This document shows, piece after piece, positions 1 through 38,468 of a stretch of DNA of 39,159 bases (position 1 is the first letter of the stretch; every line of letters starts with the position of its first letter). The stretch spans positions 85,124 to 124,282 of the forward strand of contig WELB01000023.1 in assembly GCA_009602725.1 (NCBI GenBank), written 5' to 3'. Source of the stretch: Spirogloea muscicola. Lineage: Eukaryota. The translations under genes were made by a program, and so were the position numbers. The notes under the pieces are model-generated. The model had not been told where the DNA came from, did no database searches, and saw only the letters and a program-made list of their open reading frames with translations.

Positions 1-197
1 GAAAGCTGGGCGAGCTCTAGTAGGTGGCAGAAGGGCTCCGTTCCTGGCATCTAGTATTCATGCATCGAGTAGTGACCTTTATGTTTTGACCCGTGGTTAT
101 TGAGCGGGTCAATCTGCTGTAGGTTATGTAGATTTTTAGATGTGCTTGCCTTTGTACCTGGCCATTTGGCCTACATTTCTTTCTAATACACGATCTC
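1..197 (+). mobile_element. CRE-like non-LTR retrotransposon 3' end (family E): ORF C-terminus plus 3' UTR
   Basis: Frame 2..103 reads KAGRAL...SSDLYVLTRGY*, the terminal motif shared by all copies. The UTR segment atgtgcttgcctttgtacctggcca recurs at ~31410 (+) and ~38170-38200 (-). Confidence 0.75.
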
Positions 198-377: not shown

Positions 378-386
378 GCTCTTCCA

Positions 387-491
387 GAGAGAGAAGGCGC
401 GCGGGGCGCATGAATTGAAAGGGAGGCCAATTCAAGCCAATACATTGTTCAGGCAGAGTCGAGTGCAGACTAAACAAGGCTACATTATACG
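387..491 (-). mobile_element. CRE-like family A 3' tip with (TC)n tail
   Basis: Identical by eye to 2417-2521 and near-identical to the reverse complement of 3055-3160, which follows an LSDLFVLTRGY* ORF end. Confidence 0.8.
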
Positions 492-544
492 CGAGAGAAG
501 AAACAGCTCTTCTGTGTAAGGCTGTAACAGGTCTTCAATGTCAG

Positions 545-918
545 GCCTCGGAGGCTGGACATGCAGCTGCGAATGCTGCTCGTGGTAGTGCGCGGCCAAG
601 TACGCGGACCACCCGGACGGGGACGAGTTCGTCCGACTGGCCGTCGGTGTGCACGGGGCTTTTGGGTCTTAGTGTATCGACCTGTTGGCCCGGCTTGCGC
701 GACGCGCAGTGTCCCGCAAGCGAGGCGAGAGGACTGAGCTGAACGCCGCTGGCTCACTAGCACGGTGTTCTGCATGCGCCTATCCATACCACTCCAGCGG
801 TCCATGGCCCACGCCTTGCATCTGCGTGCTGGCCGTGCTCTAGCTGCAGCCTCTGGCTTCCGTCAGGGGGATTGCTTTCCGGCTGCTAGTCTTTCTGATG
901 TGCGACTCCTCACTAGAG
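545..918 (+). mobile_element. Frameshifted CRE-like restriction-like endonuclease (RLE) domain fragment
   Basis: Pieces read AGHAAANAAR..KYADHPDGDEFVRLAVGVHGA..MRLSIPLQRSMAHALHLRAGRALAAASGFRQGDCFPAASLSDVRLLTR. The KY...F.P.A.d..GalG...RLS.sLQR layout is typical of the RLE C-terminus. Confidence 0.8.
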
Positions 919-1007
919 AGAAGGCGCGGGTCGCATGAAATTGAAAGGGAGGCCAATTCTAGCCTTACAAATGTCCTGTTAACTGGGTAATGAGCTGGCT
1001 AGGGGGG
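916..1007 (-). mobile_element. CRE-like family A' 3' tip
   Basis: Near-identical to the reverse complement of ~30915-31010. Ends ttggcctccc...atgcg..cgcgccttctctct. Confidence 0.75.
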
Positions 1008-1567
1008 ACACTCACTAGAGGTTACTAAGTGATTCTCCTACCAGGAAAGCTTTGGGAAAGCGCTTTCTGGCCCCTTCGGACCTTGTCAATACTTTCCGGG
1101 CTGGCTGTTCACAGCCCTTGGCCCCTTTGAGAGAGGCACTTTGAAACGTAAGCAATACACACAAGTGTTTCCAGAATGTCCTGGTTTGAGTTCGGACATA
1201 GAGCGTTTAGGAGACAACCCTCTCACAGGAGAACGCCAACGAACACACGCGCACATATCACAGCAGAGTGTTCCCCTGAGGCACCGCACACTCACTAGAG
1301 GTCACTAAGTGATTCTCCTACCAGGAAAGCTTTGGGAAAGCGCTTTCTGGCCCCTTCGGACCTTGTCAATACTTTCCGGGCTGGCTGTTCACAGCCCTTG
1401 GCCCCTTTGAGAGAGACACTTTGAAACGTAAGCAATACACACAAGTGTTTCCAGAATGTCCTGGTTTGAGTTCGGACATAGGGCGTTTAGGAGACAACTC
1501 TCTCACAGGAGAACGCCAACGAACACACGCGCACATATCACAGCAGAGTCTTCCCCTGAGGCACCGC
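1008..1567 (+). repeat. Tandem duplication, 2 x 280 bp
   Basis: Units 1008-1287 and 1288-1567 differ at about 5 positions. Each unit is a CRE family C 3' end (LTRGY*/LTRGH* plus UTR) fused to part of an LTR. Confidence 0.95.
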
Positions 1568-2264: not shown

Positions 2265-2345
2265 TATGATAGGATTTCTTTTTAGGCTGGCTTTGCCAGC
2301 CCCTCTTCTCTATGGGCGAAAGAAAGAGCACTTTCTTTCTTTGCT
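2265..2345 (+). mobile_element. CRE-like family B' 3' tip
   Basis: ggctggctttgccagcccctcttctctatgggcga...gcactttc matches 2941-2979 and 31870-31915. Confidence 0.7.
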
Positions 2346-2406
2346 TTGCCTCTTCTCTATGCCCGGCTTCAACGCCGGGTCAGGAAGAAGAAGGCTCGCC
2401 CATTCT

Positions 2407-2645
2407 GAGAGAGAGAGAGAGAGAAGGCGCGCGGGGCGCATGAATTGAAAGGGAGGCCAATTCAAGCCAATACATTGTTCAGGCAGAGTCGAGTGCAGAC
2501 TAAACAAGGCTACATTATACGGAGACCTAATCTAAGATACCTAAGATGACATTAGTACCCACGGGTGAGCACAAACAAATCTGACAAGCTAACTTGGGGA
2601 GCTGGAGCGCCGCCGCGAAAGCCGGAGGCCTGACTTAGAGCGCGC
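2407..2645 (-). mobile_element. 5'-truncated CRE-like family A copy with (TC)n tail
   Basis: RALSQASGFRGGAPAPQVSLSDLFVLTRGY* (stop at 2552), ~140-bp UTR, then a (TC) dinucleotide tail. Confidence 0.85.
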
Positions 2646-2673
2646 ATAGAGAAAGAGGGGCTGGCAAAGCCAG

Positions 2674-2979
2674 CCCGCCGGGTCGCTCGCCCAAGTCTTT
2701 CGCATGCGCCTGGCGGTATCGTTCCAACGTCCCTTGCCCACGCAGTCCACACGCGCGCAGGACGCGCTCTGGCCGCCGCCTCCGGGTATCAGCGGAGTGC
2801 CTCCTTCCCGGCATCGAGCTACCCTGACCTGATGTTGCTCACTCGCGGGTACTGAGCTTCCCTAGTGTGTTGTCGTGTTTGGTGGAGTAGTCCTTTTTCG
2901 GCACCTCTTTCTTTGGCTTTGGCCATTGTCCATTGTGTTTGGGCTGGCTTTGCCAGCCCCTCTTCTCTATGGGCGAGCC
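2674..2979 (+). mobile_element. 5'-truncated CRE-like family B' copy
   Basis: AGSLAQVFRMRLAVSFQR / AHAVHTRAGRALAAASGYQRSASFPASSYPDLMLLTRGY* (stop 2853-2855), then a UTR ending gggctggctttgccagcccc...gggcgagc. Confidence 0.85.
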
Positions 2980-3160
2980 AAGTTAGCTTGTCAGATTTGT
3001 TTGTGCTCACCCGTGGGTACTAATGTCATCTTAGGTACCTTAGATTAGGTCTCCGTATTACGTAGCATTGTTTAGTCTGCACTCGACTCTGCCTGAACAA
3101 TGTATTGGCTTGAATTGGCCTCCCTTTCAATTCATGCGCCCCGCGCGCCTTCTCTCTCTC
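2978..3160 (+). mobile_element. 5'-truncated CRE-like family A copy flanked by a 15-bp direct repeat
   Basis: LSDLFVLTRGY* (stop 3021-3023), UTR and (TC)n tail. tctctatgggcgagc occurs at 2964-2978 and 3157-3171. Confidence 0.85.
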
Positions 3161-3277
3161 TATGGGCGAGCACTTTCTTCTCTATGGGCGAGCACTTGCT
3201 TCTTTCTTTCACCTGCCACCCCTCCCCCGAGGGTCTGACGAGGGTCGCCTCCAAGGTCCCCCGGCGGGCCTGACACA

Positions 3278-4176: not shown

Positions 4177-7100
4177 GTGCTGCTGGCGGTGGGCGGGCAG
4201 GAGGAGGTGGCGACGACGGCCGAGGACTTTGTGTGCGCCACGCTGGACTGGTGGCCGCCCCAGAAGTGCGACTACGGCCGCTGCGCCTGGGGCCTCGCCT
4301 CCCTCCTCAACCTGGTCCGCCCCCCCTCCATGGCTCAGCGGTTCAAGCGCCCAACACATGATTCGAGACCTCGCAGGTTCGACTCCTGCTGGATGCAGTG
4401 CCCAATTCCCATCACCTCACTTTGAAGACTGATGCACGTCTGCTTTGCCCAATTCGTCTCTTGCAGGACCTCCAGAACCCACAGCTCCAGGCGGCCATCG
4501 GAGGTGACGGCCCTCTGCTCCCCCAGCTCCGATGCTCATGGCCGCCACTCGCCTGACCCTGTGAAGCCTGCCGCAGCCGCCGTCCTCTTCAACCTTGCTG
4601 AACTGGTCACGTCGGCAATTGGGACGTTCTGCTGCAAGCCCACTACGCCAGCAGACTAGCAATTGCAGTTGTTCTCAGCAGCTTCGCATGCCACGCCTTC
4701 GATGGTGCAGGGCTCGCGCCGTTCGTCCTCCGGCTGGGAGGCTCGCTGCAGGACCACATCACGTATGAAGTTGGCCTGAAGGAGGGCGAGGAGTGCCCCC
4801 CGATCACGCCCAATGCGACTGACGCCCTCGGCTTCAGCGGTGGCTGTCTGCCCATGAGCCGCTGGGACGAGCTCAACGACCTGTGCTACAACCACGGGTA
4901 GGCCTCGCGCACTGCCGCTCAGTGCTTGGTATTCAACCGTGCCTTGTGAGCATGCGGCTATGGGACTGGCACAGCAAAGTGCTGCAGGGCTCTCAGGGCC
5001 GAGTGGCCGGTCCTCCATGCAGCGCAGCTGCGAGCTGGTGTTTGGCCTCAACGCGCTCCGTGGCCGTCACCAAGTGGGCCCCCGCACCTGGGTTGGCCCC
5101 TGGAACCCCAGCAACGCTCAGGCGCTCATCCACTACACTGCCGCCAAAGGCTATCACATCAAGGCCTGGGAATTGGGTACGCGATCATCCAAGTTATAAG
5201 TTGAAGCAAGCATCATCCCTGCTAGCTATACAGAACTGCAGTCACCGACCACATGGCAATTAGAGAAGTCACCAGGCATTTTCTGCATGCGTTGGTGCGT
5301 CTGTGAGCCTTGCAGCTTCCACCAAGTGCAGTCTATTAGCCAATATTGACAGTGGCACTGGTGTCATGAGGAGCTGCAGGGAACGAGGTCGCTGGGGGAA
5401 GCGGCATAGCAGCGAGGTTGCGGCCCGAGCAATATGCTGCAGATGTAGAGAAGCTGAGGGACACTGTGGCTGCCGAGTACTCCATGCCCGTGACCGTCCA
5501 GCTGCCGCCCCCCCTGGTCGTCGCGGCTGACACCTTCTTCAGTGCCGAGTTCTACCGCCAGTTCCTCAGAGCTGCCGGGCCGGGCGTTGTCAATGCTGTC
5601 TCCCACCATATCTACAATCTGGGCTCCGGTGCGTGCTATGTGACCGACTTTCTCCTATCCTCCTCCAAGCCACAGGCCAACGTCCACAGTTGTCCTTCCC
5701 TTGCTATTCCTGATATCTCTTCCATTGCTGAGATGGGCAGATGAGCTGATCAGAAGCCAGCACCTTCTGGCATACGCCTGATCCGCTCCACTCTTGCAGG
5801 TTTGGAGCCAACATTGGTGGAGAGAATACTGAACCCCAGGTACTTGGACAAGGCTGGCGCACTCCTGCAGCTGGCCCAGGGGACGGTGTCCAAGTACGGC
5901 AATGGCGCAACCATTTGGGTGGGCGAGGCGGGCGGGGCCTTCAACAGCGGCCAGCACGGCGTCACGGACGCCTTTGTGTCTGCATTTTGGTGCGGGTCCC
6001 CTAGGACTTGATAATTCAAGATCTCTTGCATATTTACACGAGTCTCAGACGATTGTAGAGTCAAGGATGTCATTCTTTGCTACACTTGATTGATATGTTT
6101 TCACAGAACAGTGCCATAAGGTGTGCTCTCTGATTACTGAGTGAACGACTAGCGCGTGATCAGGTACTTGGATCAGATGGCAATGGCTGCGATTGCAGGC
6201 CATAGCATGTATTGCAGGCAATCTCTTGTTGGAGGGAATTACGGCCTTCTCAATCTGACAAACTTTGTGCCCAATCCAGACTACTATGGGTGCGTCACTG
6301 TAAATTGAATCGCGCCTGGCTCTGGCGCTAGCAGCTGCACCACTAAAGTCGGACAGCACAATCAATCAAGCAATATGATGCTCTTGTGTGCTGAATGCTT
6401 CTACGTGGTGCGCTTGGCCTTGTGCTTCTCAGATGCCGGGTTCTTGGCAAGGTCGTATGAGCCTGAAGCATGAGCTTGGAAATTGATATTGAAGGCACAA
6501 TGCTATGTGTAGTGCAGGGCTCTCCTTTGGAGGAAACTGATGGGTGCTCGAGTACTTCGAGTAGTGAGCCCTGCTGATACTCCTATGTTGCGAGCCTATG
6601 CCCACTGCCTGAGGGGATCCCGGGTACGTTTCCTCATGTGATGGCGCTGCCTTAGAATGCAGCAGCAGGCTTCTGCCTACTTGTACTGAGCAGGGAGCCC
6701 TTTTAGTCTCACCAGATACCAATCATTTAGCCAGCTTAAGTTTCTTGACCTTACTTGTTGGAACTATGTGCTATATGTATGAACCTGCTGTCGATCGAAT
6801 GAATGTGTCTTTCCAGGGTACAACAAAAGAACGTGCTTGAGGCCCTTGCTTGAGTCTATTGCATTAACAAGACTGCACCAGGGAAGCAATGAACACTCTC
6901 AGCAGACGTCTCTTGACAGTGGCCTTTTGTCGCCATCACAGGGTGGCATCACGCTCCTGCTGCTGAATCTGAGCAACTCCACCAGCTTCTATGTCAAGCC
7001 CGACATTGTGGACATTGCGTGGAAGAGGAAGCGCAGGCTCGGAGCCTTGCTTGGGCGGAGGGAGGAGTACCACCTGCAGCCGGTAGGCGGAGACCTGTCT

Positions 7101-7265
7101 AGCCAGCAGGTGCTGCTCAACGGCCAGCTGCTGGCGCCCTCTAAGGATGGCCAACTGCCTCCCCTGCTGCCCAGGAGGAAGAGGGCAAGGGCTGGCCTGT
7201 GGATGGACGCCCTTTCCTATGCCTATGTCACGTATCCAGATGGTTCAGTGCCAGCCTGCGAGTGA
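4177..7265 (+). CDS. Heparanase-like protein / beta-glucuronidase, glycoside hydrolase family 79 (5' end in gap)
   Basis: GT-AG exons 4177-4314, 4467-4503, 4711-4897, 5028-5176, 5380-5628, 5800-5989, 6164-6289, 6518-6623, 6942-7265 join in frame (1506 nt). Motifs [38 protein letters not shown] (acid/base Glu), [12 protein letters not shown] (nucleophile Glu), [20 protein letters not shown] and LRAYAHC are typical of plant GH79. Confidence 0.95.
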
Positions 7266-10671: not shown

Positions 10672-10907
10672 GAAAGATGTGGCTCTCCCAAAGAGAGAAG
10701 GTGTGCGGGGCGCATGAAATGAAAGAGAGGCCAATTCAAAAGGGGAGCAGGGGCTGTGAACAGCCAGCCCGAAAGATGACAAGGTCCGAAGGGGCCAAAT
10801 GCGCTGTCTCAGAGCTGGGTAGGATGATCACTTAGTAACCACGAGTGAGGAGCCGCAAATCTGAAAGACTAGCAGCAGGAAAGCAATCCCCCTGACGAAA
10901 GCCAAAG
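10672..10907 (-). mobile_element. CRE-like family C 3' end with a family A tip nested inside it
   Basis: FRQGDCFPAASLSDLRLLTRGY* (stop 10832-10834). The C tip is interrupted at ~10692-10740 by ttgaattggcctc...ccttctctct, then resumes ttgggagagcc. Confidence 0.8.
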
Positions 10908-13607: not shown

Positions 13608-16600
13608 TCAAAGCCGTCTCTCAGCTGCTTCAAAAGCTCGTCCGGCTGGCTCCTTATTACCACCAGTGACTGTGTCATATTCCCCAGGACCTTGATGTCC
13701 AGCAAGCTCACTAGCACCCTACATTACAACTTCGAGAAATTTAGCTTCACCACAAATTTCACAATCTCCAAGAATGAATGAGTAATTTGCTCAGACTGTC
13801 ACACATATGATGTATACTGTGAAGTGATAGAAGATTGCAAGCACACATGCTGCCTCACTGCAATGGAAGTTTAGCGTACTGGTTCAGTACCTTCTTCATG
13901 TCCTGATAGGCAGTTTGCAAGCTGTCATCACTCTGGCCACCGATCTGTGCTGCGTAGCCACCGGATGTGTATGCGGGTTGAGTCGCCGTTTTACCAGGCG
14001 AAAGATCAACATACCCACCAGTCTGATCGCTGGAGAGATTGACATAACCGCCTGTGACGGTGTTGGGCTGCCTCTGGGTCGTGCTTCCCAATGTATCAGC
14101 ATATCCTTGCAGGCTTTTCTTATCTAAATCCTCGCCTATGCCCTGCACTGTCTGCACAACAATCAATGACCAGTCAGGACAGGCCAGGGCTGTCAAATCT
14201 GATCTAGAAAACGTGCTGAAAGAGTAAGCTGGCCTTGACCTTCAACCCAAGGCCAAGTAAGCTCTGCAACAACATCATCAGATATCAGGTCATCACATGC
14301 ACCTTCAGCAGCATAAGGAATTTCTTCATACCTGCTTTGTGCCTTCGTAGGCACCCTGAAGAGTGCCCTGAACAGTGTCTGAAACCTTGGCACCAGCTTG
14401 ACTGAGCGTTTGCCGCGTGTTGTCGTAGTTGGTATCTCCAGCAAATCTGGCAGAGTGGTAAGAGCCCGTTAGCTCACAACAGGAGAGTAGGAATGTCACA
14501 GCATATGTGATATTCTTAATATACCATGTAGCAAGAGGCAAACATACTTGGAAGTTCCGTGTGATGCTGCATCTTGTCCCTCTATAACTCCTTCCTTTGC
14601 TCCTTGATAAGCACTGGCAGCTTGATCATATGCTTGGCCAAGTTGCTGCCTAGCAGCATCGTAGATACTCTGAGCAGTCTGCAAGTGCACAACTGCTGGG
14701 TCAACCAAAGGAAAACAAACAGGTGCACAGGATAACCCCACATCACAGAGAGGAATTAGGGATCACAAAGGAGGAGTAGGGAAAACATGCCTGCTTCGTC
14801 GCGTCAGCAGCGCCCTGCACAGTGTCGCTGGCCTGTCCAACCACATTCCTGCTTGTCTGGTAGGTCGAATCACTACCAGTTGTAGTACCAGTGGTGGGGT
14901 AGTTGCTTGCAGACACTGAGCTTGGTGTGACGTTAACAGTTCCAGTTGCATTGCTGGTGAACGTAGGGCCTTGAACAGTACCAGCTGCATTGGTAGTATA
15001 CGTAGGGCCTGAGACTGTCTTAGAGTCCACAGTCGAGGTTGTTGAGTTACTGGCAGAGAAAGAGGGTTGGCAGTGAGTCAGTGCGAGAGAAAACCTGTAC
15101 GGCCTTGATAAAGCTATGAAGAATGTAGTGGTATATATTGAGACCAGCCTTGCTCATGATCAGTCAATCTTCAGGTATATGCGAATGGAAGCACACCTCA
15201 AGTCTTGGCCAAGACTGCTCTCTTTTGCACCATCCTTGACGCCTTTGTAAGCACCAGAGATGTGGTCATAAGCTGCTCCAATGGCATTCCTTGCACCCTG
15301 GTTGATATCGCCAGCAACCTGAGCAACACATGACATAGTGGCATTCTAAGGCAACCGAGACTAAGGTACAAATAATCAGCTCCGATGCAAACACAGTAAC
15401 CACATGTAGATGTGATTGACAATTTGGCAAATTTATGAGCCAAAAGATGAGCAAAACGTCATGTCACAAGTCCAACTGAGAGCCCTTCAGAAGGCAGCAT
15501 ATACCTTTTGAACCAACTCGCCAGCGCTGGCTGCTACAGTGGTGGTGCTGTCATATACTTGGCTGCCAGTGACCTTAGCACCTTCGGACAAGTCAGAAGC
15601 TGTACCGGCTGCTGAATTGTAAGCGCTGTTCAGGCGATCCTTTGCACCTTGATGCGTATCAGCCACAGTTTGTTTTGTTGAATCAAACACACCTTGGACC
15701 GTGCCTGTAATCTTCTCAACCGTAGATCCAACCGCTTGTTTGGTCTGATCATAAGTAGTACCTGGGCTCTGAGTATCCGTGGTGTTCAAGGCTGATGCAG
15801 TATCCCTGGTATTCAAGCCTGATGCCATCGAGTTATCGTAGGTGCTACTGTTGGTGGTCGAGGTGATGTCAGAAGACCTGACAATCAGGGCCGCTTGTCC
15901 TCAGATACTGTGATGGAAGAAAGTGCAAACCAGAACTGTCCTCAAGGACAAGTGTACTAGCAGCAATGCACACGAGAATGAGGTGAAGTATGCGAAATGT
16001 GATGCCTTCTTGCTTAGCTGATCGTGTAAAATTGTGAGACACCTCATATACATTGTGTACTGCTAGAATGTCAGTGCAAACCATGTGTGAGTGACCTACT
16101 TACTTGTTCTGAATTCCTGCAGCTGTGCCTTGAAGTCCTGCATGTGTGCCTTGGATGGTCTGCCTTGCCCCTTCATAGACATAGTTAGCTGTGCCAGCGA
16201 TGCCAGAGTACACGGATCCAGCCACTGCTTTTGTCTTGTCCAGTATCGCACCAGTTGTGCTTTTGGCAGCATCATAGGTCTGGTTGCTGGTGTTGCCTGT
16301 AGTGGTGCTCTGGCTGCCATCATACCTGAGTAGCACACATGAGGTGAGCTGTAGAGAACGTGCAAGGACCATCCTAGCACGAACTGAAATCCTACGAATA
16401 ATTGAATGTATACAACTGGCAATTGGCACATTTTGTGCAATCAACATTGACAGTTGTTACCTTAATGCCTTTGTTCGACATACCTTCTCTCAGCATCCTG
16501 ATGTACATCATCTGCAGTCTGCTTGACACTGCTCTGAACGTTGTCAATTGCCTGGTTGATGTTATTCTTGACACTGTCCATGACGTGGTCTGAGGGGTCA

Positions 16601-17344
16601 TTCACTTGCCCAGTTGTGTCGGAATACAAGCTGCTTGTTGGTCTGCGCAGAACCAAAAGGCAGATTTGCCGAGAGGTGAGCGCCTATCACAATCCCATCT
16701 GATTATAGTGACAAAAGGATTTTCTTTCAAATGAAGTGACACACCCCACTACGAGCAAGGTGCAAACAGTGCATGTTGGACGTGTACGCCATACCCAGAA
16801 GTGCTTTGGCCACCAGTAGATGTCTGTATAGCTGCTGCTGCAGCACGTTGGTATTGATCTTTGCTGTCAGACTGGCTGCCAATGTCCAGTCTGTCAAGAA
16901 CATCGGTATTGCTGGACTGCTGCTTGGCAGTGTTGTATCTATCCTCAGCAGCCTATTCACGAGATTGGTAGCAGAACAGTCAGAGTTACACTCACACTAA
17001 GGCAAGCACCAACATTGATGCTGGTCCATGGCAACGTCGGCCTGGCACAATCCACCTAGACGAGTGTCTGCAGGGGTGGCACTAATACCTGAAGCACTGT
17101 ATTTGCTTGACCTTGTGCAGCGTTGCGGTACTGCGTGAGCTGGTCAAGGGAATCCTGGTCCTACGTCAATTGAGACGACAAGGCATGCGTATCAGCCCCA
17201 GGACCTGCCTGTTATTGCTGAGAACAAGATATCCCGGTGCACATACCCCGTAAAAATTCATGTACTGTAAGTACTCACTTGCTGCACGCCTTGGCGAAAG
17301 GCAGGGGCGCCCTCGAAAGTTCGCTTGTCTTGCCCCGACGCCAT
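13608..17344 (-). CDS. LEA (group 3-like)/hydrophilin-like protein, ~682 aa, 12 exons
   Basis: Exons 17344-17279, 17160-17089, 16952-16795, 16642-16484, 16325-16104, 15877-15505, 15318-15197, 15049-14791, 14678-14548, 14446-14332, 14151-13891, 13718-13608 join in frame (2049 nt). The product is A/T/S/G/Q/D-rich, lacks Cys and Trp, and has repeated YD.(A/T)KQ / VQG.Y.G(A/T)K amphipathic units. If the last intron is not spliced the frame stops at 13855. Confidence 0.8.
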
Positions 17345-18303: not shown

Positions 18304-18739
18304 ATGGCGGCAATCCCGCTGTGCTTCCAGTGCGGTGTTGTTGACTCTCCTTGTGGCTGCAAGGTCAGCTGCCATCTGATCTCTGTCAAGACCCGCCAAG
18401 CTGCCATGAACTAGTGCAACTTTACACTATTGCGCAAATGTCAAGGGGAGGTCTACTTTGTGAGCTACGGAAGGCAATGGGAAGAAAGCATTGAGTAGCA
18501 CTGATCTCGTTGTGAGTGGATACAATGGCTGGTCCGCTTTGCTGGAATTGCTGACATGACATAAATCCTGACAGGTGGTTTCTCCCACGCTGGCCTTTAT
18601 TGCTATGTTGATTGTTGGCATCATCTGCTGGCCGCTGGGTCTCATTATTTGGTGCTGCAATCGCCTCAGAGGAAGTGCAATCATGAGGAAGCCGGTATAT
18701 GAAGTCTACCCTATGGTGGCCAGTTTACTGCCTATCTAG
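18304..18739 (+). CDS. Small Cys-rich membrane protein, 74 aa (resembles the plant 'cold-regulated' CxxC...PCxCK-VVGPTLG family), copy 1
   Basis: Exons 18304-18363 and 18575-18739: MAAIPLCFQCGVVDSPCGCK|VVSPTLAFIAMLIVGIICWPLGLIIWCCNRLRGSAIMRKPVYEVYPMVASLLPI*. Paralog of 20931-21494 with the same intron position. Family assignment is from recall. Confidence 0.85.
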
Positions 18740-19399: not shown

Positions 19400-19745
19400 G
19401 GTTGGCAGCCTCCACGTCTTTGTATGTTGATAGCGCCCCTCCGAGCAGCAGCCTCGCCTTCTCCTCAACGTTGGATTGGTTGAAGTTTTCCAGTTGGGGG
19501 ACCCATGCAGACGTTGCCTCACTGGGCAACAATCAATGCGGAAGGGCAGAGCAAGTACCACCTTTGGTGAACCAATTTAAACAGTGCACTACAAAGTCTA
19601 TTGCGGCTGCGGTATCAAGTGGTACCCCCTCCTCCATCACTTGGTCCAGCTGGTAGATGCACGCCATCGTAGTTGGGCAGGTAGCATGGGCATCCTAGCG
19701 TCCCACAAGAATTGGTTGCTCATCACAGAATGCGGCTCTCGCTTA
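19400..19745 (+). mobile_element. Decayed CRE-like RLE fragment (family A type)
   Basis: Aligns to ~11660-12020, e.g. ctcctccatc.c.tgg.c.agctggtagatgcacgccatcgt. Confidence 0.6.
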
Positions 19746-19779
19746 CTTTGTAGTATTCCTAGACGCCCTATGTACTGTT

Positions 19780-20395
19780 TTCCCCTATTTTTAGGCTGGC
19801 CTATTACAGCCATCGCCCTCTATGGGAAGAGTTCCCTACCGACGCATTCGACCGCTCCCACCCAGCCCAGTCTGCCACCAAGGCTGGGTATGCGGTCGCC
19901 TGCGCCGCTCGGGCAAAAGAGATCAAGTACGCCGACCATCCGCCGGAAGACGAGTTCTTCCCGTTGGCAATTGACATCCATGGGGCACTGGGCGCTCGGT
20001 GGCTTAAGCTACTTAACCAGCTCGCCCGCCACGCAATCGCCCGTCGCTTCCATGGTGAACCGGTTGACTTTCCTGCAGCCGGGTCGCTGGCGCAAGTGTA
20101 TCGCATGCGCTTGGCCGTCTCGCTGCAGAGGTCCATGGCCCGTGCGCTGCACCTTCGTGCCGGAAGAGCCCTAGCTGCTGCCTCTGGCTCTGTCCAGGGG
20201 ACCCACTTCCAGGACCCTAGCATCTCTGATCTGCGGCTGCTCAGCAGGAATTACTGAGTCATTCGTAGTTGCTTTGTTTCTTCTTGTGCTTGTTCCTTAG
20301 CGCTTCCCCTGGCTCCCTTCTCGTACTTTGTCCATTCTTTTTTGGGCTGGCTGTTCCAGCCCCTATCCTCAATGGGCGAGCTCTTTCTTCCCTTG
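19780..20395 (+). mobile_element. Family F tip followed by a 5'-truncated CRE-like family B copy
   Basis: Tip ggctggcctattacagccatcgccc (~19795-19830). Then an open frame TDAFDRSHPAQSATKAGYAVACAARAKEIKYADHPPEDEFFPLAIDIHGALG...SDLRLLSRNY* (stop 20257) and a UTR ending aatgggcgagc. Highly similar to 36511-36933 (-). Confidence 0.85.
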
Positions 20396-20504
20396 GAAGA
20401 ATGGACGCCTCCCTTGGAGAGAGCTACTTCATCTTTGGAGCTTCTTCCTTCTTAGCGCGTCGTCTTGCCCTTGCCAGTATCGCATATCTCAAAACTGGGG
20501 TAGG

Positions 20505-20930: not shown

Positions 20931-21494
20931 ATGTCGCTTCCGGTCTTCATACCGCTGTGTTTCGAGTGCGGGAGCCACGACAACCCCTGCCGCTGCAAGG
21001 TAACCTGGACTTGCCTTGTATATTTATACGCCGTACGCAGGACCTAGACCTAGTGTAGCTGTTACAAGCGAGCGTGGCGCAGTATGCTGGGTGGCAAGCG
21101 CCGCACTTGGCCAGCAACTGTGCATGCCGTGCTTAGCACCCACAGCCTTTCCCCAGAAGCCGCAAGGAAGACTAGGTTCAAGAGCAGCATCTAGGTGCTC
21201 CTGCTGAATTGCGCGTGCTGCTGCTAGTAAACCCTCTCAATTTGTAGTCCAGTGCTTGAAGAGAAGCAGCACCTTGCCGCCTTAGTCAGCTGCTCATGTC
21301 TGTACTCAGTCGAAATTTGCACACTGCAGGTTGTAGGGCCCACTTTGGGTTTCATTGGCGGCGTTTTAGCAGCACTTATTGAATGGCCAGTGGGTGCAAT
21401 TGTGTGGTGTTGCAATCACAAGGCTGGCAACAGGATCATGGGGCAGCCTTTTGCAGTCATTGGGCCTTCTATCAATCATGCCATCCCTATATGA
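20931..21494 (+). CDS. Small Cys-rich membrane protein, 77 aa (same family), copy 2
   Basis: Exons 20931-20999 and 21330-21494: MSLPVFIPLCFECGSHDNPCRCK|VVGPTLGFIGGVLAALIEWPVGAIVWCCNHKAGNRIMGQPFAVIGPSINHAIPI*. Canonical GT-AG intron. Confidence 0.88.
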
Positions 21495-23084
21495 GGCTGG
21501 TTGAGATGTACGTTGGTGCCTCTGCAGTTGCATGTCACGCTTGTGCTGTGTAGGTTGTTGGCTACTGTTCTTGAGCTTGTACTACACATGCTGGCAGCAG
21601 TCAGATCGACGAAGATTGCAGATTTCTGAGAAGATTGTACAGAACCTTGGCAAGGGCATTGCCGCTATCCAGCAGCAAGCATGGCTTTTGAAGATGGAAA
21701 TGGCTTCTGGCGTGTTTGTTGTCCAGCTGCCTTGGGATGCCCAGAAATTGACTCCTAGGATAGTCACAATTACAAGCCGGGGGGAGTTGTGTGTATACAG
21801 GCAAAGCTTAAGGAGGTGTCAAGCATCAATCATCATCTAGACAGCAATCGGCCATAAGCTGAGAGGCCACTAAGGTCAACCCAACTGCTGCTGAAATATG
21901 TACACGCGATTTGCAGACTATCTTTAGTCGCCGACACTGGTAAGATGGACCTCTGCATACTGCAGATTACATGGCCACTGCTACATGAGACTGAAGTCTA
22001 CATCTAATGTCCTCACAGTCTGCTTCTCCGGTGCAGCACAAGTTGCCTTCTTTGCTCAGTCGGCATGCGGCCTATGCAACCTCAGTTGGTGACGTCCTCT
22101 GGTCACGCTGATAACGCCTAGGACACACATCAGAAAAAAGTGCATAGATGTGTGAGTCTGTTGTGCATTGGTCAGCTTGGAGCCAAGTGGAGAATAACAT
22201 TTCTCACCATGGTGTTGCCTGGGATGCATGATGAAACGGCCAGGATCAGCATTGAAACGAGGTCACTATTGGTTGAAATATAGAATGTAGCCATTCGCAA
22301 AGAAAGGGTGCTTGATAGAATGCCATGATCAGCATAGGTATGAGGTCACGATCAGCATAGGTGCCGCCATCATCTCCCAATTACTACTGGGCTAGCTGAC
22401 TGCTGGCAGGCCTACGTGGTTCCTGATCCTCACAGGATCTCCTCTGCTGAGCAATCTGGAGAGCTGATGCCGTGAAGTAGCCGGCAAAGAGGACAACCGG
22501 CATGGCCACAAATTCAGCGAAGAAGGCAGCCCTATCCAGGAGTAGCAACTGCCTGCTGGTAGCGCCCATGACCAACAGGCTCCGCTTCGCTGAACTGCAC
22601 AGCTGGAGCGACTTATGGGGTCGCTACAGTGCAGCACGCAGCTGTACAATCAGCTCCTTGTATAAGCAGAGCCTCAACTATCAAGCAGCCACCTGCATCG
22701 GAGTCAAACCCAGAGGGATGAGCTTAGTGTGGGTGGCGAAGCGTATGAAGCGCCGCCGCTGCGGGCCCGTTGCATACGAAGCTGCCGCAATAGGCTGCAG
22801 AGGCGGCAGCTTGCTAGGCAGCGCAAAGCCGACGCACAACTATGCAGCCCCTTAAGGCGGCCGACGACCCCGACATGGTTGCTAGGTCCACGGCCACACA
22901 ACCTTGGGCTGCTCTAAGGGCCACCTTGACACACAGAAACAGCTCTGGCTGGCTCGACTCGAACACCCGTGCCCACATACACCAAAGAATGCCGCTGCTG
23001 GAGCCCAAAGTTGAAAATGATGGACGAAAGCATGTGTTGAGTGACAGAGCGGCCAAGCAACAAAGGCAAGGCCCATCCACGATT

Positions 23085-23735: not shown

Positions 23736-23924
23736 TTTGCCCACGGCCCTGCGTGCAGAGCGCGCAATCTCAGTCAGGGTGAAATTCCTCCTCCGATTTT
23801 CAGCCAGTCGCTACAAAGAGGTTGCGGTGGTCCCAGCTAAGCTGTTGCGACCGCTGGGCCAAACGCGACCATGTAAGAACCTGACGTTTTGGCATCTCCT
23901 TCGACACAGGGTGCAGAGAAGCAC

Positions 23925-25178
23925 CGTAAGGGGCGGGCGAAGACCCGGCTAAGGGACCTCGGGTCGGTGAAGCCCACGAGAGGCGCAGTACTGCGGCTGC
24001 AGCTCGCCGCCGCCGCCGCCGCAGCTTGCTGCCAGCTCGCTGCGAGGCGTCCGTGCCTGGCCCTTGGTGGGGTAGCTGTTGACTGGTGCCCAGGAGGTGG
24101 AGTCGCTGCCTGACGGCGGCGCCCACTAGGCGAAGTCCTACGCTGTGCTAACACGCGAGTGCGTCATCGTGTAGGAGGTTCGCTCCTAAGACTCATATGC
24201 CCCGATTCAATCAGGACCTGACCTCCTAGTTGCCTGTGTACAGAAGGCAGTCGCTACATTTGGTGTCAAAGGTGTTCCTGCATCTTGCAGGCCTTGTCTT
24301 CAGGATTTAGGGTTTAGACGTTCCACAGGCTGCTGGTGCAAGGATCGACCTGATGCTCTGGCCTGAACGTCTCGTTTGAGTGGACACGTTCATACCAGAG
24401 CGGGTACATGGTACTGCAGAAGGGTCGGCAATCTCAACATTGCTCCCAACCACCACAACCACCACGACCACCGGCATTGGCTGCTAGATAGACCCTTCAC
24501 ACGCGTACGACCTGCTGTCGGCAAATAGCCTAACTTGGGAAGGGGAGTTGCAACCGGCAGCCACTGGGCGGCTTAGTATTTCAGTGCAACCAAGATCGGG
24601 TTTGTGCTCCAGTCTTGGACCTTCCCTGCAGTTTCTTGTCTGCCTTACCTGTTTGGAGGTACGGCTTAGCGCGCTGCCCTGCTTGCTCGCTTGCTGTTGC
24701 ACCGGTATTGCAGACACTAACTACTCGGTATGGAAACGGAATTTGCTGACCCAGTGGAATCTGAAATGATCACCCAGTGATTCCCCTGGACAGCATGGAG
24801 TCGGGGAAGTCCAGTGTGCGCCCCAGTCCTTCTCGGCTGGCGGACCAATCGGCTGTATTGGAGGATTTGGTCCAAGAGGTGGCACAGCTCCGTACGACCT
24901 CTGGCCAAGAGGGCCTGTCGCCTCGTGACATGCGCAGAGTCGCACTCCTCGGGGAGCATCTGGAGGCGGCAGCAGCTGTTATGGACCCTGCCTCCCACGC
25001 CGTGCTGGGGGCATTGTGCGAGGTGGTGCAAGCCACGCATGGACTGCTGGCTACCAGCGAGCAACAGCTTAAGACGGTCAGGGCTCAGGTGCATGGGTTG
25101 CACCAAGGCCTGGGCCAGGCGAACAGGCTTCGCGGGTTGAACCTCCCGACTCCACCCCGGAAGTTTTATGGGTACTAG
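23925..25178 (+). mobile_element. Truncated Ty3/gypsy-type LTR retrotransposon: 5' LTR, PBS, leader, gag N-terminus
   Basis: LTR ~23925-24258 ends ...TACA, followed by PBS-like TGGTGTCAAAGG (24261-24272). Leader and ORF from ATG 24795 are collinear with 28359-29610. Confidence 0.8.
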
Positions 25179-26699: not shown

Positions 26700-28358
26700 T
26701 TTTGCGCCTCTCGGCCCTTTCAGACCATGAACATTCCTTGGGCTGGCCTCTCACGTCCTATCCTACCCAACCTCTGAGTAAGCGCTTTTCGCCTTACTAG
26801 AGGTCACTGAGCGTCCCCTGGCTGATGTCTTAGTCCTAGTCCTTCTCACTCCGGCTCCTTCAGACCTTGTCCATTCCTTTGGGCTGGCCTTTCCCAGCCA
26901 CCAGTCAATCTGGCCGCGCTTTCTCTTTTAGCCCCTTCGGTCCTTGTCAATCCTTTTTGGAATATAGAAAAACGCTTCCGTAGAAGGCGATGGCTGTGAG
27001 TGGCCCAGGAAAAAGAATGAGCGAAGTCCGAAGGGGCCAGAAAAGCGCTGAAGCAGAATTTTGTGTAATCGAAACAAACAAAGGCCAAATGGCCAAGTGG
27101 TCAAGGAAGCACACAGCGACCTAACTCCCACACTCCCACACTCCACACACCCTCCCCTGGAGGGAGGTTGGCACGCAGATGCACCATACGAGAGCAAGCG
27201 CGGCCAGATTGACTGGTGGCTGGGAGAGGCCAGCCCAAAAGGAATGGACAAGGACAGAAGAAGCCTGGGTGCGAAGTACTAAGACAGCAGCAAGGGGACT
27301 CTCAGTAACCTCTAGTCAGAAGATGCAAGTCTGAATAGCTAGACGGCGGAAAGACGTCGCCCTGACGGTAGCCGGAGGCCGCAGCCAAAGCGCGGCCGGC
27401 GCGCAGGTGAACCGCGAATGCGAGGGACCGCTGCAAAGAGATAGATAGCCAAGCGCATCGAGAGAATGGGGGCAAGGGCTGCGAAAAGCCAGCCCAAAAA
27501 GAATTCACAAAGGTTCAGAGGGGCCTTAGAGCGGTGAGCAGCTACAAAGAAAGAAAGAAAGGGCTCGCCCATTGAGGATAGGGGCTGGACAAGCCAGCCC
27601 AAAAAAGAATAAACAAGAACGAGAAGGGGGCCAGAGGAAGCCAGAGGAAGCGCTAAGAAACCAAAGTACACAAAGAAAGAAAGCAGCTACAACTCACTCA
27701 GTAACCCCTGCTAAGCAGCCGCAAATCAGAGAGGCTAGGGTCCTGGAAGTGGGTCCCAGCTACAAAGGGGCCTGAGGATGCTAAGGTAAAACAGGGGAAG
27801 AATGGATCACTCAGTACGTACGAGTGAGGAGCCTCAGATCCGACAGACTAGCTGCCGGGAAGCTATCACCCTGACGAAAGCCAGAGCCCGCAGCGAGAGC
27901 ACGGCCAGCTCGCAGATGCAGAGCGTGGGCCATGGACCGCTGCAGGGATACAGAGAGGCGCATCCGATATACCTGAGCCCACGAGCCCGCGGCGTTGAAG
28001 TCGGCTGGCTCGCCGCGTCTGCGGGACACAGCCCGCCGCGCAAGCCTAGCCTAGCCAATAGGTCAAGCCACTGGGACCCAAGAGCCCCGTGCACGTCCAC
28101 CGCCAAGGGGACGAACTCGTCGGCAGGTGGGTGGTCGGAGTGCTTGGCGCATCCGGTAGACCTGAGCGAGGGACCCGGCCACGTTAAAGCCAGGCTGCTC
28201 ACCCTGTTGCCCGTGGCGGCGGGCCGCTGCGAGCCGGGCAAGGCGGTGAAGCAGGTCCAGCAGCCATTTGGTGCCAAAGGGTCGTGGAAGTCGACAGCCC
28301 GTGGGACAAATTCGTCGCCCACCGGGTGGTCCGAGTATTTCCGTTCCTTTGCGCCAGC
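26700..28358. mobile_element. Mosaic cluster of about 9 CRE-like 3' fragments
   Basis: D end (+) 26795-26927, F tip (-) ~26965-27060, D end (-) 27190-27460 (SSYSDLHLLTRGY*), C tip (-) ~27460-27535, B end (-) 27545-27760 (SDLRLLSRGY*), and RLE fragments (-) 27811-28145 and ~28245-28358. Confidence 0.8.
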
Positions 28359-30140
28359 CATAAGGAGCGGGCGGACACCCGGCTAAGGGAGCTTGGATCG
28401 GAGCGGTGAAGCCCGGAGAGAGGGGCAGTACTGCGGCTGCCTGCTGCCGCAGCCCGTCGCCGGAGCTCGCTGCCGGCTCGCTAGGAGGCGTCCGTGGCTG
28501 GCCCTTGGTGGGCTAGCTGCTGACTGGTGCCCAGGAGGTGGAGTTGCTGCCTGTCGGCTGCACCTCGGGGCGAAGTCTCCCGCTGCGCTAACACGCGAGT
28601 ACTTCATCATGTAGGGTCTGCTCCTAAACCCCTATGTCCGGAACCAACCAGGACTTGACCTCCTAGTTGCCTGTGTATAGGAGCAGGTGTGTTAGAGGTA
28701 TTCGTGCATCTTGCAGGCCTTGTGTTCAGGGGTTACGGTTTTGGGCTTTCTACAGGCTGCTAATGCAAAGATCCACCAGATGCTCTGGCCTGACTTTCTT
28801 GTTTGAGTGGAAAAGATCTTGCCAGAGCGGGTACGTGGTGCTGCAGACGGTCGGCAATCTCGATATTGCTCCCCGGCGCCACGACCACCGGCATTGGCTT
28901 CCCCATTACCCATCTACACACATACCACCTGCTGTTGGCGAGATTGCCTATCTTGGAATTGGGAGTTGGAACAAGCAGCTGCTGGGCAGGTGAAAGTGCA
29001 AGCAAATGTGGGTTCGTGCTCCGGTTCTGGACCCTCCCTGCAGTTTCTTGTCTGCCTTACTTTTTGAAGGTACGGCTCAGCGCGCTGTCCTGCTTGCTCG
29101 CTTGCTCGTGCACCAGTATTGGGGAGACTAGCTATCTAGTATGGAGGCGCGGTATGCTGACCAGTGGAACTTGAATTAATCACTCAGTGATTCTCCTGGA
29201 CGGCATGGAGTCGGAAACCTCCAGTGCGCATCCCAGTCCTTCTGGGCCGGCGGATGAACTGGCTCTGTTGGAGAAGTTGGTCAAAGGGATGGTACAGCTC
29301 AGTACGGCCGCGTTTGGAGCTGTCCCAAGCGGAGGAGCTTCCGGCCAAGAGGGCCTGTTGCCTCAGGACATGCGCAGAGTCGCAGGCCTCGGGGAGCAAC
29401 TGGAGGCGGCAAAGGCTGTTGTGGACCCTGCCTGCCACACCCTGCTGGAAGGGTTGTTCGGTATGATGCAAGCCAATTTCGCCCGACTTGATACCAGCGA
29501 GCGACGGCTTAGGAGGGCCAGGGCTCAGGCGCATCAGTTGCACCAACGCCTGGACCGGGTGGACACCCTTCACGGGTCCCGCAGGCCTGCACCCCAGAAG
29601 TTTTCTGGCCAGATGGAGCGTGTGGGCCTCCAAGCCTAGCTGGACGAGATTACGGAGTGGTGCGGGCTGTGTTGCACGGATGAGGGGGCAAGAGTGCATG
29701 TTGCCTCTACGTACCTCACTGGCGAGCCTCTCCGGTGGTGGAACACCGTGAAGAAAACCTCCACTCCCAAGATGTACAACACGTGGGAGTTTTTCTCGAC
29801 CTCTTTGACCAATGTGTATAGTGAGGTCCATTTGGAGCTTGAAGCTTGTGACGAGCTTGTCCCTTCTTATCAAGCGGTGGCTCACAAGAAGGCGAGGCTC
29901 AATGAGGGCCAGCACTCCCTTCCCACCAGGGACTCGAGGTCTGAGGTGTCGGAGCCGCGCGGTTGCTTTCGCTGCGGCGACTTGAACCATTGTATCCGAG
30001 ACTGCAAGGCTCCCGGGCCTTCTACCTCTCGGCCAGAACGTCCCTTCAAGAGGGACAAGGGCGATGACAAGGGCAAGCGTGAGTACCCTGTCCAAGCCTT
30101 AATGTCTGAGCAAACAGCAAGCCGTCTGTCAGCTATTTGA
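28359..30140 (+). mobile_element. Truncated Ty3/gypsy-type LTR retrotransposon (5' LTR, leader, gag)
   Basis: LTR ~28359-28687 is homologous to 23925-24258. The LTR/PBS junction carries a small deletion. A gag relic follows, and no pol is seen. Confidence 0.85.
29205..30140 (+). pseudogene. gag: gag pseudogene (retrotransposon capsid plus CCHC zinc knuckle)
   Basis: PQKFSG...QA*LDEITEW...(frameshift) VHVASTYLTGEPLRWWNTV...TWEFF...CFRCGDLNHCIRDC. There is an in-frame TAG at 29637-29639 where Trp is expected. Confidence 0.85.
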
Positions 30141-30480
30141 CCTTGTTGGCCAGCCTGCCCACAAATGGACGTACCTGTCGTACGCTCATTTCCTGCTCTC
30201 TTGCAAGCTCTGGAGGCCGGTGGACCTTCACTTGTATGAGTGTCCCATGCTGACTTGCACATAGCAGCGAATGTGTACCTACTTTTTCTCGTCGGCGGCC
30301 TGAAAACATGGTGTTCGTCATTCTGCCTTGCAGGCGCTGCGTGATCCAATGAACTCCGCGTGGTTGTCGCTGCTGTGCTCGTTCACTGCGGGACACCAGC
30401 TCCTTCTGAATGGCGTCGATGAGATTCAGGAGAGGCCAAGCGCGACTGCTGATCTATGTCGATTACACCCCCTCAACCCC

Positions 30481-36466: not shown

Positions 36467-37820
36467 TAAGAAAGACAAGCACAGAAAGAGACAAAGCAGC
36501 TACGAATCACTCAGTAACCCCTGCTAAGCAGTCGCAGGTCAGAGATGCTAGGCTCCTGGAAGTGGGTCCCCTGGCCAGAGCCAGAGGCAGCAGCGAGGGC
36601 TCTGCCGGCACGCAGGTGCAGCGCACGGGCCATAGACCTCTGCAGCGAGACGCCCAGGCGCATTCGGTATACCTGCGCGAGCGACCAGGCTGCAGGAAAG
36701 TCCACCGGCTCCCCATGGAAGCGGCGGGTGATGGCGTGGCGGGCGAGCTGGTTGAGCAGCTCGAGCCACCGAGCACCCAACGCCCCATGGGTGTCGATAG
36801 CCAGCGGGAAGAAATCGTCTTCCAGCGGATGGTCAGCATACTTGAGATTTTTTGCCCGAGCGGCGCAGGCAACCGCATACTCAGCCTTGGTGGCACACTG
36901 GGCTGGGTGGGAGCGGTCGAATGCGTCGGTAGTCAAGGAGAAGACGTGGCCCACGGGCTTATGGGGTGGCCACAAGGTCTACACGACGTGCCTGGAGACC
37001 GTCGGCCCTTTCCTGGAGCGGCATGACGCCGGGGTGCTCCGCGGCCACCAAGAAGCCAGCCTCCACCAGGATGCCATGCATCGCATCCCGGAGGCGGTCA
37101 TGGGCCACTGTCCGCTCTCCGCCGTGCGAACAGCGAAGAACGTGAGCAGCCAGCTCCCCCGGCTCGGCCCCGCGCTCACCACACTCGCATTGACGCACGC
37201 CCTGGAGGCATGGCGGCGGCAGGCCAAGGAGCCGGTGGACGGCACTTCGGAATACCTCGTCCGGGAGGGCGAGGGCGTCGTTGAGTGGGAGGGCCTGGAG
37301 CCACGCCGCTGCCCCCGGGGAAGAGGCCGATTGAAGTCTCGCGCGCCCGCGCAGGTCGGCCTCGGGGAGCTGTCGCACGGCGGTGGTGTAGGCGGCCTTG
37401 TCGACCACGGCCGCGAAGCGCGCTTGGACGCGCATGTCAGCGGTGTGCGTGAGATGCGCAAAGGAGACCGCCTGGCCTGCCAGGTCCGGGTGCGCCGCGA
37501 GCAGCTCCTGGTGGGCGGAGCGGAGCGACACCTGGAACGGCAGCGCGCCCATGTCGACCTCCATCACCGCCTGCTCCAGTGCACACCGGCCGTGGACCAT
37601 GAAGCGCTGGGCCACGGAGGCGGCAGTCTGCGCCCAGCTGCCGAGGTATGCAGCCCGACAAGAACGGGCCGAGAAGAAGAGGCCAAGACCGCCGTGGCTG
37701 AGGGGTACCGCCGCCTGGTGGATAGCGGCTGGCGACTGGAGGAAGCCCTGGTGGCGGACCAGGGCCGCCAAGCTGGCCACCATGCCTGCGTCCAACTCCG
37801 CGTACGCCGCCAACGCCCCT
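36467..37820 (-). mobile_element. CRE-like non-LTR retrotransposon (family B), 3' ~1.3 kb: post-RT region, CCHC knuckle, RLE; disabled
   Basis: QAAVPLSHGGLGL, AAYLGSW, ARLQSASSPGAAAWLQALP, CECG..HVLRCSHGGERTVAHDRLRD, RRVDL..*..RLLLD (stop plus small deletion), AKNLKYADHP..FFPLAIDTHGALG..RLGVSLQR..SDLRLLSRGY*. Confidence 0.9.
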
Positions 37821-38468
37821 GGGCGTTGTAAGCGGACTTTGACGCAGGCATGGTGGCGAGCTTGGCGGCCCTGGTCCGCCACCAGGGCTTCCTCCAGTCG
37901 CCAGTTGCTATCCACCAGGCGGCGGTACCCCTCAGCCACGGTGGTCTCGGCCTGCGCCCGCTCGCTCGGTCTTGTCGGGCTGCATACCTCGGCAGCTGGG
38001 CGCAGACTGCCGCCTCCGTGGCCCAGCGCTTCATCATGGTCCACGGCCGCGTACGCCGCCAACGCCCCTGGGCGTTGTACGCGGAGCTTGACGCAGAGGC
38101 ATGGTGGCGAGCTTGGCGGCCCTGGCCCGCCACCAGGAAAATGCGTGTATATTAAGAGATGGGGAGGCCATGTGTGGCCAAGTACAAAGGCAAGCACATT
38201 GGACAAAAAGGGAAGCCAGGAAGGGCTCGCCCATTGAGGATAGGGGCTGGAAAAGGCCAGCCCAAAAAAGAAAATGAACAAAGTACGAGAAGGAAATCTC
38301 GTGTATTTGAAACAAACAGGGGGCCAGAGGAAGCGCTAAGAAAAACAAAGCACACCAGGGCTTCCTCCAGTCGCCAGCCGCTATCGCCTGGTCCCCTTCT
38401 TGTACTCTGCTCATTCTTTTTTGGGCTGGCTGCTCCAGCCCATATCCTCAATGGGCGAGCCCTTTCTT
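37821..38468. mobile_element. Rearranged CRE-like scraps (fold-back arms, E-type UTR, B tips in both orientations)
   Basis: 37821-38048 and 38070-38135 (+) mirror 37590-37820 (-). E UTR (-) ~38140-38200, B tip (-) ~38220-38350, B tip (+) ~38390-38468. Confidence 0.75.

What the first reader, a model, noticed from the sequence alone, without database searches (positions are those of the whole stretch)
2385..3200. Family A lands at the same position inside other families' 3' tips, once with a 15-bp target duplication
Seen: the A copy at 2978-3160 is flanked by tctctatgggcgagc on both sides (2964-2978 and 3157-3171, third copy 3179-3193). The A copy at 2407-2645 (-) is preceded by a B' tip cut at ...tctctatg and followed by aatgggcgagcc. 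At 10692-10740 an A tip splits a C tip just before ttgggagagcc. At 387 the A tail is followed by tggaagagc. So 4 of about 10 A-type tails abut a TGG(G)NGAGC motif, the terminal motif of the B/C/F tips. Inference: sequence-specific targeting of sister retroelements by the family A endonuclease, or (TC)n-tail pairing with the ttctct tract just upstream of that motif.
Basis: partly seen in the sequence, partly recalled or inferred. Interest (0 to 1): 0.82.

Follow-up and report, generated by a model that had tools for sequence, protein, structure and literature searches.

The report
Sister retrotransposons landing in each other's tails
In this alga, several related jumping-gene families have landed again and again at one spot in the tail of their sister families, likely because their own C/T-rich tails pair with a C/T run there; it is a favoured spot, not an exclusive target, and not special to one family.

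Summary
The 15-bp repeat is an exact target duplication around a 5'-truncated family-A copy inside a family-B 3' tip, and 4 of 13 A-type tails abut TGG(G)NGAGC (3 clean splits; P about 2e-5 even against a pyrimidine-run null). All the families are 3' ends of restriction-like-endonuclease (CRE-like) non-LTR retrotransposons, with closest homologs in Zygnematophyceae. The 'third copy' is explained: a B copy had already inserted at the same spot of another B tip (11-bp duplication), after a tiny B tail (13 bp). So the site attracts B as well as A. Targeting is not strict. Six of 10 duplication-flanked insertions in the window have no such motif nearby, and in genome-wide contigs most A tails run into unrelated flanks without consensus. 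Eight of 8 longest contig pieces do continue into the motif, but too briefly to count as formal bridges. Eight of 10 duplications begin with 3 or more pyrimidines, which favours tail-primer pairing at a C/T run. Some recognition of the motif by the protein is not excluded. Verdict: a real hot spot of mutual nesting; a new variant of known transposon-targeting LINEs.

The parts
2276..2314 (+). Outer (oldest) family-B 3' tip, proximal half: GC-rich hairpin 2285-2301, then pyrimidine run; 2302-2314 is the left copy of a 13-bp duplication
2315..2361 (+). Tiny insert ending in a B-type tail, with the right copy (2349-2361) of the 13-bp duplication; 2351-2361 is also the left copy of the next, 11-bp duplication
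   Evidence: exact repeats; that it is a retrotransposition event is inferred
2362..2381 (+). 5' piece of a 5'-truncated B1 element (endonuclease-domain coding); 2373-2381 is one copy of a 9-bp duplication
   Evidence: frame continues without stop into 2685+ once the insert is left out
2382..2406 (-). Distal half of the B' tip (motif plus TTC-type tail), inserted antisense in the B1 ORF
2407..2644 (-). Family A1 copy, 5'-truncated inside the ORF end, (TC)9 tail; splits the B' tip; no duplication of 8 nt or more at its ends
2645..2684 (-). Proximal half of the B' tip (hairpin 2658-2676) and the other copy (2676-2684) of the 9-bp duplication, which lies directly behind an internal antisense TGGGCGAGC (2693-2685) of the B1 ORF
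2685..2978 (+). B1 ORF end (stop 2853-2855), 3' UTR and tip with hairpin 2941-2959; 2964-2978 is the left copy of the 15-bp target duplication
2979..3156 (+). Family A1 copy, 5'-truncated (ORF stop 3021-3023), (TC)n tail
3157..3175 (+). Right copy of the 15-bp target duplication (3157-3171) and short tail of B1
3176..3210 (+).
386..496 (-). A1 copy whose tail abuts tggaagagc (F-like tip half); upstream side not a clean match
10690..10739 (-). 48-nt A1-like tip splitting a family-C tip before its motif
909..1020 (-). A2 copy with a 10-bp duplication (909-918, 1011-1020), antisense at the ORF end of family C: an A-type insertion at a different target
36514..37822 (-). Longest coding fragment in the window (B2 family): post-RT region, CCHC knuckle and restriction-like endonuclease motifs, frameshifted; defines the element class
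   Evidence: 34% identity to residues 642-986 of a single-ORF RT protein P0054, E 1e-39; motifs read

Best explanation
The nest is made of 5'-truncated copies of several sister CRE-like non-LTR retrotransposons that have inserted into one another, likely by target-primed reverse transcription at a loosely chosen site where the element's C/T-rich RNA tail would pair with the nicked strand opposite a pyrimidine run. Shown: element class motifs, nesting order, exact duplications of 8-15 bp, repeated use of one spot in B/C tips by both A and B, pyrimidine starts of the duplications. Inferred: the endonuclease nicks the bottom strand at the end of a pyrimidine run followed by a purine (often GCC-Yn^R); the freed purine-rich 3' end pairs with the (UC)n or (UUC)n tail and primes cDNA; the top strand is cut 0-15 nt further on; most products are truncated within 50-600 nt. 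B and C tips carry such a run between their GC hairpin and TGGGNGAGC, and each duplication regenerates it, so the spot is reused. TGGGNGAGC then mostly marks the site and need not be what is read.
For: Five insertions at the tip site in the window, by two families: A1 at 2979, 2407 and 10690; B1 at 2362; a tiny B tail at 2315. 8 of 10 exact duplications start with 3 or more pyrimidines against a background of 0.15, P 9e-6. 6 of 10 duplication-flanked insertions have no tip motif nearby; 9 of 13 A-type tails do not abut it. Genome-wide contigs: in run X1, 87 and 112 contigs stop matching at 3156 and 3157, agreement 0.37 and 0.36, with consensus strings that differ between the four runs after the first 3-4 letters, whereas B tips continue with ACTTTCTTCTT in 181-216 contigs per run, the same first 11 letters in all four. 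Joints show A starting behind the B tail, A antisense at the B tip, and A or B pieces following A tails (tables 5 and 5c). Summed depth falls from 907,621 at 3148-3150 to 20,690 at 3163-3165 (not a copy number).
Against: Motif enrichment survives a pyrimidine-run null (P 2e-5 for 4 of 13). All 4 motif-abutting tails belong to the A1 type, three of them identical over their last 50 nt, so within the window this subfamily looks specific. The B' insertion has no tail homology at its duplication and lies directly behind an internal TGGGCGAGC. The C tip offers only about 2 nt of tail homology. All 8 of the 8 longest contig pieces listed run from the A tip into the B motif. Contig counts under-represent junctions into repeats, so the share of A copies at tips may be larger than the loose-end rows suggest. 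No biochemical evidence.
Confidence: 0.58

Rival explanations
1. The proteins of A1 (and B) recognise the tip DNA itself (TGGGNGAGC and/or the adjacent GC hairpin) with their N-terminal zinc finger, as site-specific REL elements do, but leakily; sister tips are the evolved target and tail pairing is secondary.
For: 4 of 4 A1-type tails in the window abut the motif; insertion of B' next to an internal motif copy without tail homology; the A2 site shares CTCTA and a GAG at the same spacing with the B site (read by eye, post hoc); 8 contig pieces with 1-5 other letters run A tip to motif; one joint joins a B tip cut after ATGG to an A copy truncated at 3105. Four of five REL clades are mostly target-specific (PMC4640811, passage).
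Confidence: 0.27
2. Insertion has only a weak general preference; the pattern comes from local clustering (repeat nests tolerate insertions or are accessible) plus tandem duplication and recombination among similar tips.
For: The window is dense in these fragments (about 60 segments); a 280-bp tandem duplication that includes flank (1008-1567) and fold-back duplications (36322-36466, 37587-38049) show that other rearrangements occur; three of the five tip events lie in one 900-bp nest.
Against: Exact duplications sit precisely at both ends of truncated elements and peel off in a consistent order that restores normal tips and an open frame; clustering does not give base-level reuse of one spot.
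Confidence: 0.11
3. The repeats are artefacts of a short-read assembly in collapsed repeats.
For: The window has two N gaps; no listed contig piece spans the window's own junctions.
Against: Each copy has its own truncation point and substitutions; five nested events are mutually consistent; contigs with other substitutions show the same junction type.
Confidence: 0.04

Closest known systems
Cnl1 of Cryptococcus neoformans and MoTeR/FoTeR (CRE-related REL elements of fungi)
   Same: Single-ORF RT plus C-terminal REL elements; many truncated copies; Cnl1 is reported to insert preferentially into copies of itself, with specificity undefined and some insertions elsewhere (PMC12810828, passages); FoTeR 3' ends are followed by the repeat they target (PMC12857005, passages).
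   Different: Those are telomere-associated and mostly one family per genome; here at least five sister families are interspersed among genes and hit each other's 3' tips, with (TC)n or (TTC)n tails.
Zepp and ZeppL (L1 clade) of green algae
   Same: Nested insertion into existing copies, giving arrays of 5'-truncated 3' ends (PMC8226300, passages).
   Different: Zepp is an L1-clade element, self-targeting, one cluster per chromosome; these are REL elements, cross-family, dispersed, with a relaxed preference.
Transposon-targeting non-LTR elements such as Tx1L in Tx1D of Xenopus
   Same: A non-LTR element using another transposon as target; transposons are listed among known targets (PMC4640811, passage). 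The Tx1L/Tx1D pair is recalled and named in unchecked notes.
   Different: Tx1 elements use an APE endonuclease and are strict; here targeting is leaky and mutual.
Trypanosomatid CRE1/CRE2, SLACS, CZAR (type members of the CRE clade)
   Same: Single ORF, zinc finger, RT, REL, duplications of variable size (PMC12278014, passages).
   Different: They insert at one position in spliced-leader genes and end in poly(A); neither holds here.

Membership tests
REL-type non-LTR retrotransposon | RT domain followed by C-terminal CCHC knuckle and PD-(D/E)xK-like endonuclease in one ORF | tested here: met
   Window 36514-37822 (-) has C-E-C...H-X3-C, HD, E, RVD and K..KY and aligns to P0054, a 1096-aa RT (PF00078) protein whose best solved relatives are R2 proteins, E 1e-6. 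The RT core itself is not in the window; it is in same-lineage gene model P0004.
REL-type non-LTR retrotransposon | TPRT hallmarks: 5' truncation, 3' simple tail, target duplication | tested here: met
   10 exact duplications of 8-15 bp at element ends; truncations and tails.
CRE clade | REL motif spacing of SLACS/CRE (C-X1-3-C-X7-8-H-X3-4-C-X9-10-RHD/N...E...R/KPD...D/E, PMC12857005) | tested here: inconclusive
   Order and most spacings fit by eye, but the first spacer is 13, RHD reads AHD and RPD reads RVD; my relaxed pattern matched P0010, P0035 and P0082 but not P0054 or the frameshifted window copy.
CRE clade | RT phylogeny grouping with CRE1/SLACS/Cnl1/MoTeR | not testable with these tools
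   No named CRE reference came back; the clade label rests on motif likeness and my recall.
Strictly site-specific non-LTR element | Most copies at one position of one target repeat | tested here: not met
   9 of 13 A-type tails and 6 of 10 duplication-flanked insertions have no tip motif nearby; heterogeneous flanks in contigs. For the A1 subfamily alone the window gives 4 of 4 and the contig data give a minority, so a leaky specificity stays open.
Strictly site-specific non-LTR element | Sequence-specific nicking by the encoded protein | not testable with these tools
   Needs biochemistry.
Zepp-like self-nesting L1 | L1 clade with N-terminal APE endonuclease | tested here: not met
   Endonuclease is C-terminal and restriction-like.

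The most novel reading that the evidence does not exclude
A radiation of CRE-like retrotransposons in conjugating green algae has made the conserved 3'-terminal hairpin-plus-TGGGNGAGC module of its own sister families its evolved safe-harbour target; family A1 has lost that module from its own tip, so it attacks B/C/F tips at a fixed site while escaping the same attack.
Probability: 0.2. Interest if true: 0.72.

Novelty: new variant of a known kind. Interest (0 to 1): 0.46.

Why it matters
Transposon-on-transposon targeting is known, but a set of sister REL families with different tips and tails hitting each other at base-level hot spots gives a natural series for separating two sources of target choice: protein recognition of DNA and pairing of the RNA tail with the primer. 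That question is open for Cnl1 (PMC12810828, passage) and matters for retargeting REL elements as gene-insertion tools. I found no description of these elements in Zygnematophyceae in searches; Repbase and most subscription papers could not be searched, so they may already be catalogued.

Tried and rejected
No whole genome is held for this window, so the logo of all A flanks could not be made; contig tables were used instead. The four runs are one sample and may be the source of the assembly, so they are not independent. No RNA holder was listed. Pfam has no model for the endonuclease fragments; the window fragment has no solved relative by sequence. A metagenome scan gave one 33%-identical locus, L001, not pursued. 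Pattern scans for the A tip in prokaryote and viral contigs gave 0. A tree of ORF ends is unusable: three rows were in the wrong frame, three were short, no branch was starred. Reading the third copy as slippage or as part of the A duplication was rejected for the B-in-B reading. Reading TGGGNGAGC as A's own 3' end was rejected: 9 of 13 A-type tails lack it and three copies have the matching proximal tip half upstream. Terminator-like hits at the hairpins are a bacterial consensus and carry no weight here; tip hairpins fold only modestly better than shuffles (z -2.3 to +0.1, 7 sequences). Direct repeats of 8-10 nt found far from element starts (tails 386, 2407, 3278, 23454, 26926, 27190) were dropped as chance or as other tips; the 18-nt hit for tail 3178 is the match to B1's own tip.

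Full report
Setting. The window is eukaryotic: it holds a GH79 glycosidase gene and a BT1 transporter gene (Pfam). The closest protein hits to its repeats are gene models of one lineage at up to 88-94% identity; one of that series is labelled Spirogloea muscicola by its source, and further homologs come from Closterium and a Mesen1 gene model. I infer a Zygnematophyceae alga. No genome is held.

What the families are. Self-comparison and translation show that A, B, C, E and G fragments are 3' ends of one class of element (F is seen only as a similar tip): their frames end in similar peptides, followed by a 100-150 nt UTR, a GC-rich hairpin and a pyrimidine tail. The longest piece, 36514-37822 (-), has a CCHC knuckle and restriction-like endonuclease motifs and aligns at 34% (E 1e-39) to P0054, a single-ORF protein with an N-terminal zinc finger and an RT whose best solved relatives are R2 proteins. 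These are REL-type non-LTR retrotransposons. The CRE label rests on motif likeness to the pattern in PMC12857005 (passages) and on recall; no named reference was available for a tree.

The observation. The 15-mer is exact at 2964, 3157 and 3179 and occurs nowhere else. Four of 13 A-type tails have TGG(G)NGAGC within -1 to +4 nt; three are clean splits of a tip (2407, 3157, 10690) and one is ambiguous (386). Chance is 7e-9 under uniform insertion and 2e-5 if only ends of ctct/tctc pyrimidine runs are allowed; the window was chosen for this pattern, so these values flatter it.

The nest at 2276-3210 peels into five events. An outer B tip received a tiny B-type tail with a 13-bp duplication (2302-2314, 2349-2361). 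A short B' tip entered the B1 ORF antisense with a 9-bp duplication (2373-2381, 2676-2684); leaving it out restores an open frame. One A1 copy split that B' tip, and another split B1's tip with the 15-bp duplication. So the spot between hairpin and motif was used four times in 900 bp, twice by B and twice by A. This strengthens the hot spot and removes its restriction to family A.

What all insertions share. I scanned 35 tails and kept 10 exact duplications of 8-15 bp that sit at both ends of an element. Three are at the B-tip site, one lies directly behind an internal antisense TGGGCGAGC, six have no motif nearby. Eight of 10 begin with 3 or more pyrimidines (background 0.15, P 9e-6; three of the ten are the same site type). 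Six of those 8 empty sites have GCC at the start of the run, against 0.09 of such runs; without the three tip cases it is 3 of 5, a post hoc hint only.

Genome-wide view. Four public runs of one sample hold the stretch as contigs. Laid on 2880-3260, 79-116 contigs per listed row stop matching at 3156 or 3157 and go on with agreement 0.36-0.37; the four consensus strings share only a C/T-T-T start. B tips, as a positive control, continue with the same 11 letters in 181-216 contigs per run (24 of 1500 loose-end rows shown). Joints show A beginning behind the B tail, A antisense at the B tip, A and B pieces behind A tails, and once A behind a B tip cut after ATGG (15 of 156 and 12 of 515 rows shown). 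Contigs that continue into the motif are absent from the loose-end rows, so I laid run X1 on 3124-3200. Of 219 partly fitting contigs, 106 stop at 3156-3159 without consensus; the rows not shown hold at most 9 each; summed depth drops 44-fold across the tail end. All 8 pieces listed (of 1498, longest first) run from the A tip into the B motif with 1-5 other letters, so they are probably other loci, but their far sides are 16-23 letters, under the tool's 31-letter rule, and I do not count them as proven bridges. Depth is no copy number and junctions into repeats collapse, so my estimate of the share of A copies at B tips is only 'a minority, from about 1% to perhaps a third' (inference).

Mechanism. 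By established TPRT (PMC4760211, passages), a nick frees a 3' end that primes reverse transcription. The duplications place that end opposite a pyrimidine run, where it can pair with a (UC)n or (UUC)n tail; the second cut varies from about 0 to 15 nt away. B and C tips have such a run between hairpin and motif, and duplication regenerates it. I put 0.58 on this. Protein recognition of the tip (0.27) is kept alive by the residual enrichment, by 4 of 4 A1-type copies in the window and by the B' event, which has no tail homology. The two can both be partly true.

Comparison. REL elements are mostly target-specific, and transposons are among the known targets of non-LTR elements (PMC4640811, passages). 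Cnl1 is reported to insert into itself with undefined specificity (PMC12810828, passages); Zepp forms nested arrays of 3' ends (PMC8226300, passages); trypanosomatid CRE elements are fixed to spliced-leader genes (PMC12278014, passages). Passages of PMC8381367, PMC3747384, PMC13708176 and bioRxiv 10.1101/2021.08.11.455996 added nothing that bears on the claim. Ten searches (listings and abstract starts) showed no paper on these elements in Zygnematophyceae or on mutual tip targeting among CRE-like families; Repbase, supplements and most subscription papers were not seen. Unchecked notes of this scan describe similar ideas in other genomes; I did not test them.

Verdict. Real, well-supported hot spot of mutual nesting among sister REL retrotransposons; strict family-A specificity not supported; tail pairing is the better single explanation; new variant of a known kind; interest 0.46.

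Noticed in passing
window 28358-30803 and 23924-25171: A gag-like frame with a zinc knuckle (weak Pfam hits) lies between two ~310-bp repeats that are inverted (28377-28688 vs 30803-30500, 81%). Either two opposed insertions or a DIRS-like non-autonomous element; a second 76% copy of the left part is at 23924-25171.
   Followed up: no
window 1008-1567: 280-bp tandem duplication (98%) of a family-C 3' UTR plus its flank, starting next to the A2 target duplication.
   Followed up: partly
window 36322-36466 and 37587-38049: Fold-back (inverted) duplications of a C tip and of the post-RT coding region (90%).
   Followed up: no
window 7-15 (+) and 2693-2685 (-): TGGGCGAGC also occurs inside ORFs: sense in family E's C-terminal codons and antisense in B1's; the latter received an insertion right behind it.
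   Followed up: partly
proteins P0003, P0005, P0007, P0009, P0011: Public gene models of this lineage fuse host domains (NAP, AP2, MIP, formyl transferase) to endonuclease fragments of these elements, probably annotation errors; P0011 repeats one ~81-residue endonuclease piece nine times.
   Followed up: no
window 18304-18720 and 20931-21495 (+): Two short paralogous genes whose first exons encode similar Cys-rich starts (read by eye).
   Followed up: no
window about 4200-7262 (+) and 32900-35376 (+): Host genes: GH79 heparanase-like glycosidase and BT1 folate/biopterin transporter.
   Followed up: no
window about 13850-17300 (-): Multi-exon Thr/Ala/Gln-rich repetitive gene that looks LEA-like to me; not tested.
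   Followed up: no
window 19745-20460 (+): Possible older triple nest: B2 behind an F tip, followed by two degenerate tip halves with TGGAAGA and TGGAGAGAGC; duplications too decayed to call.
   Followed up: partly
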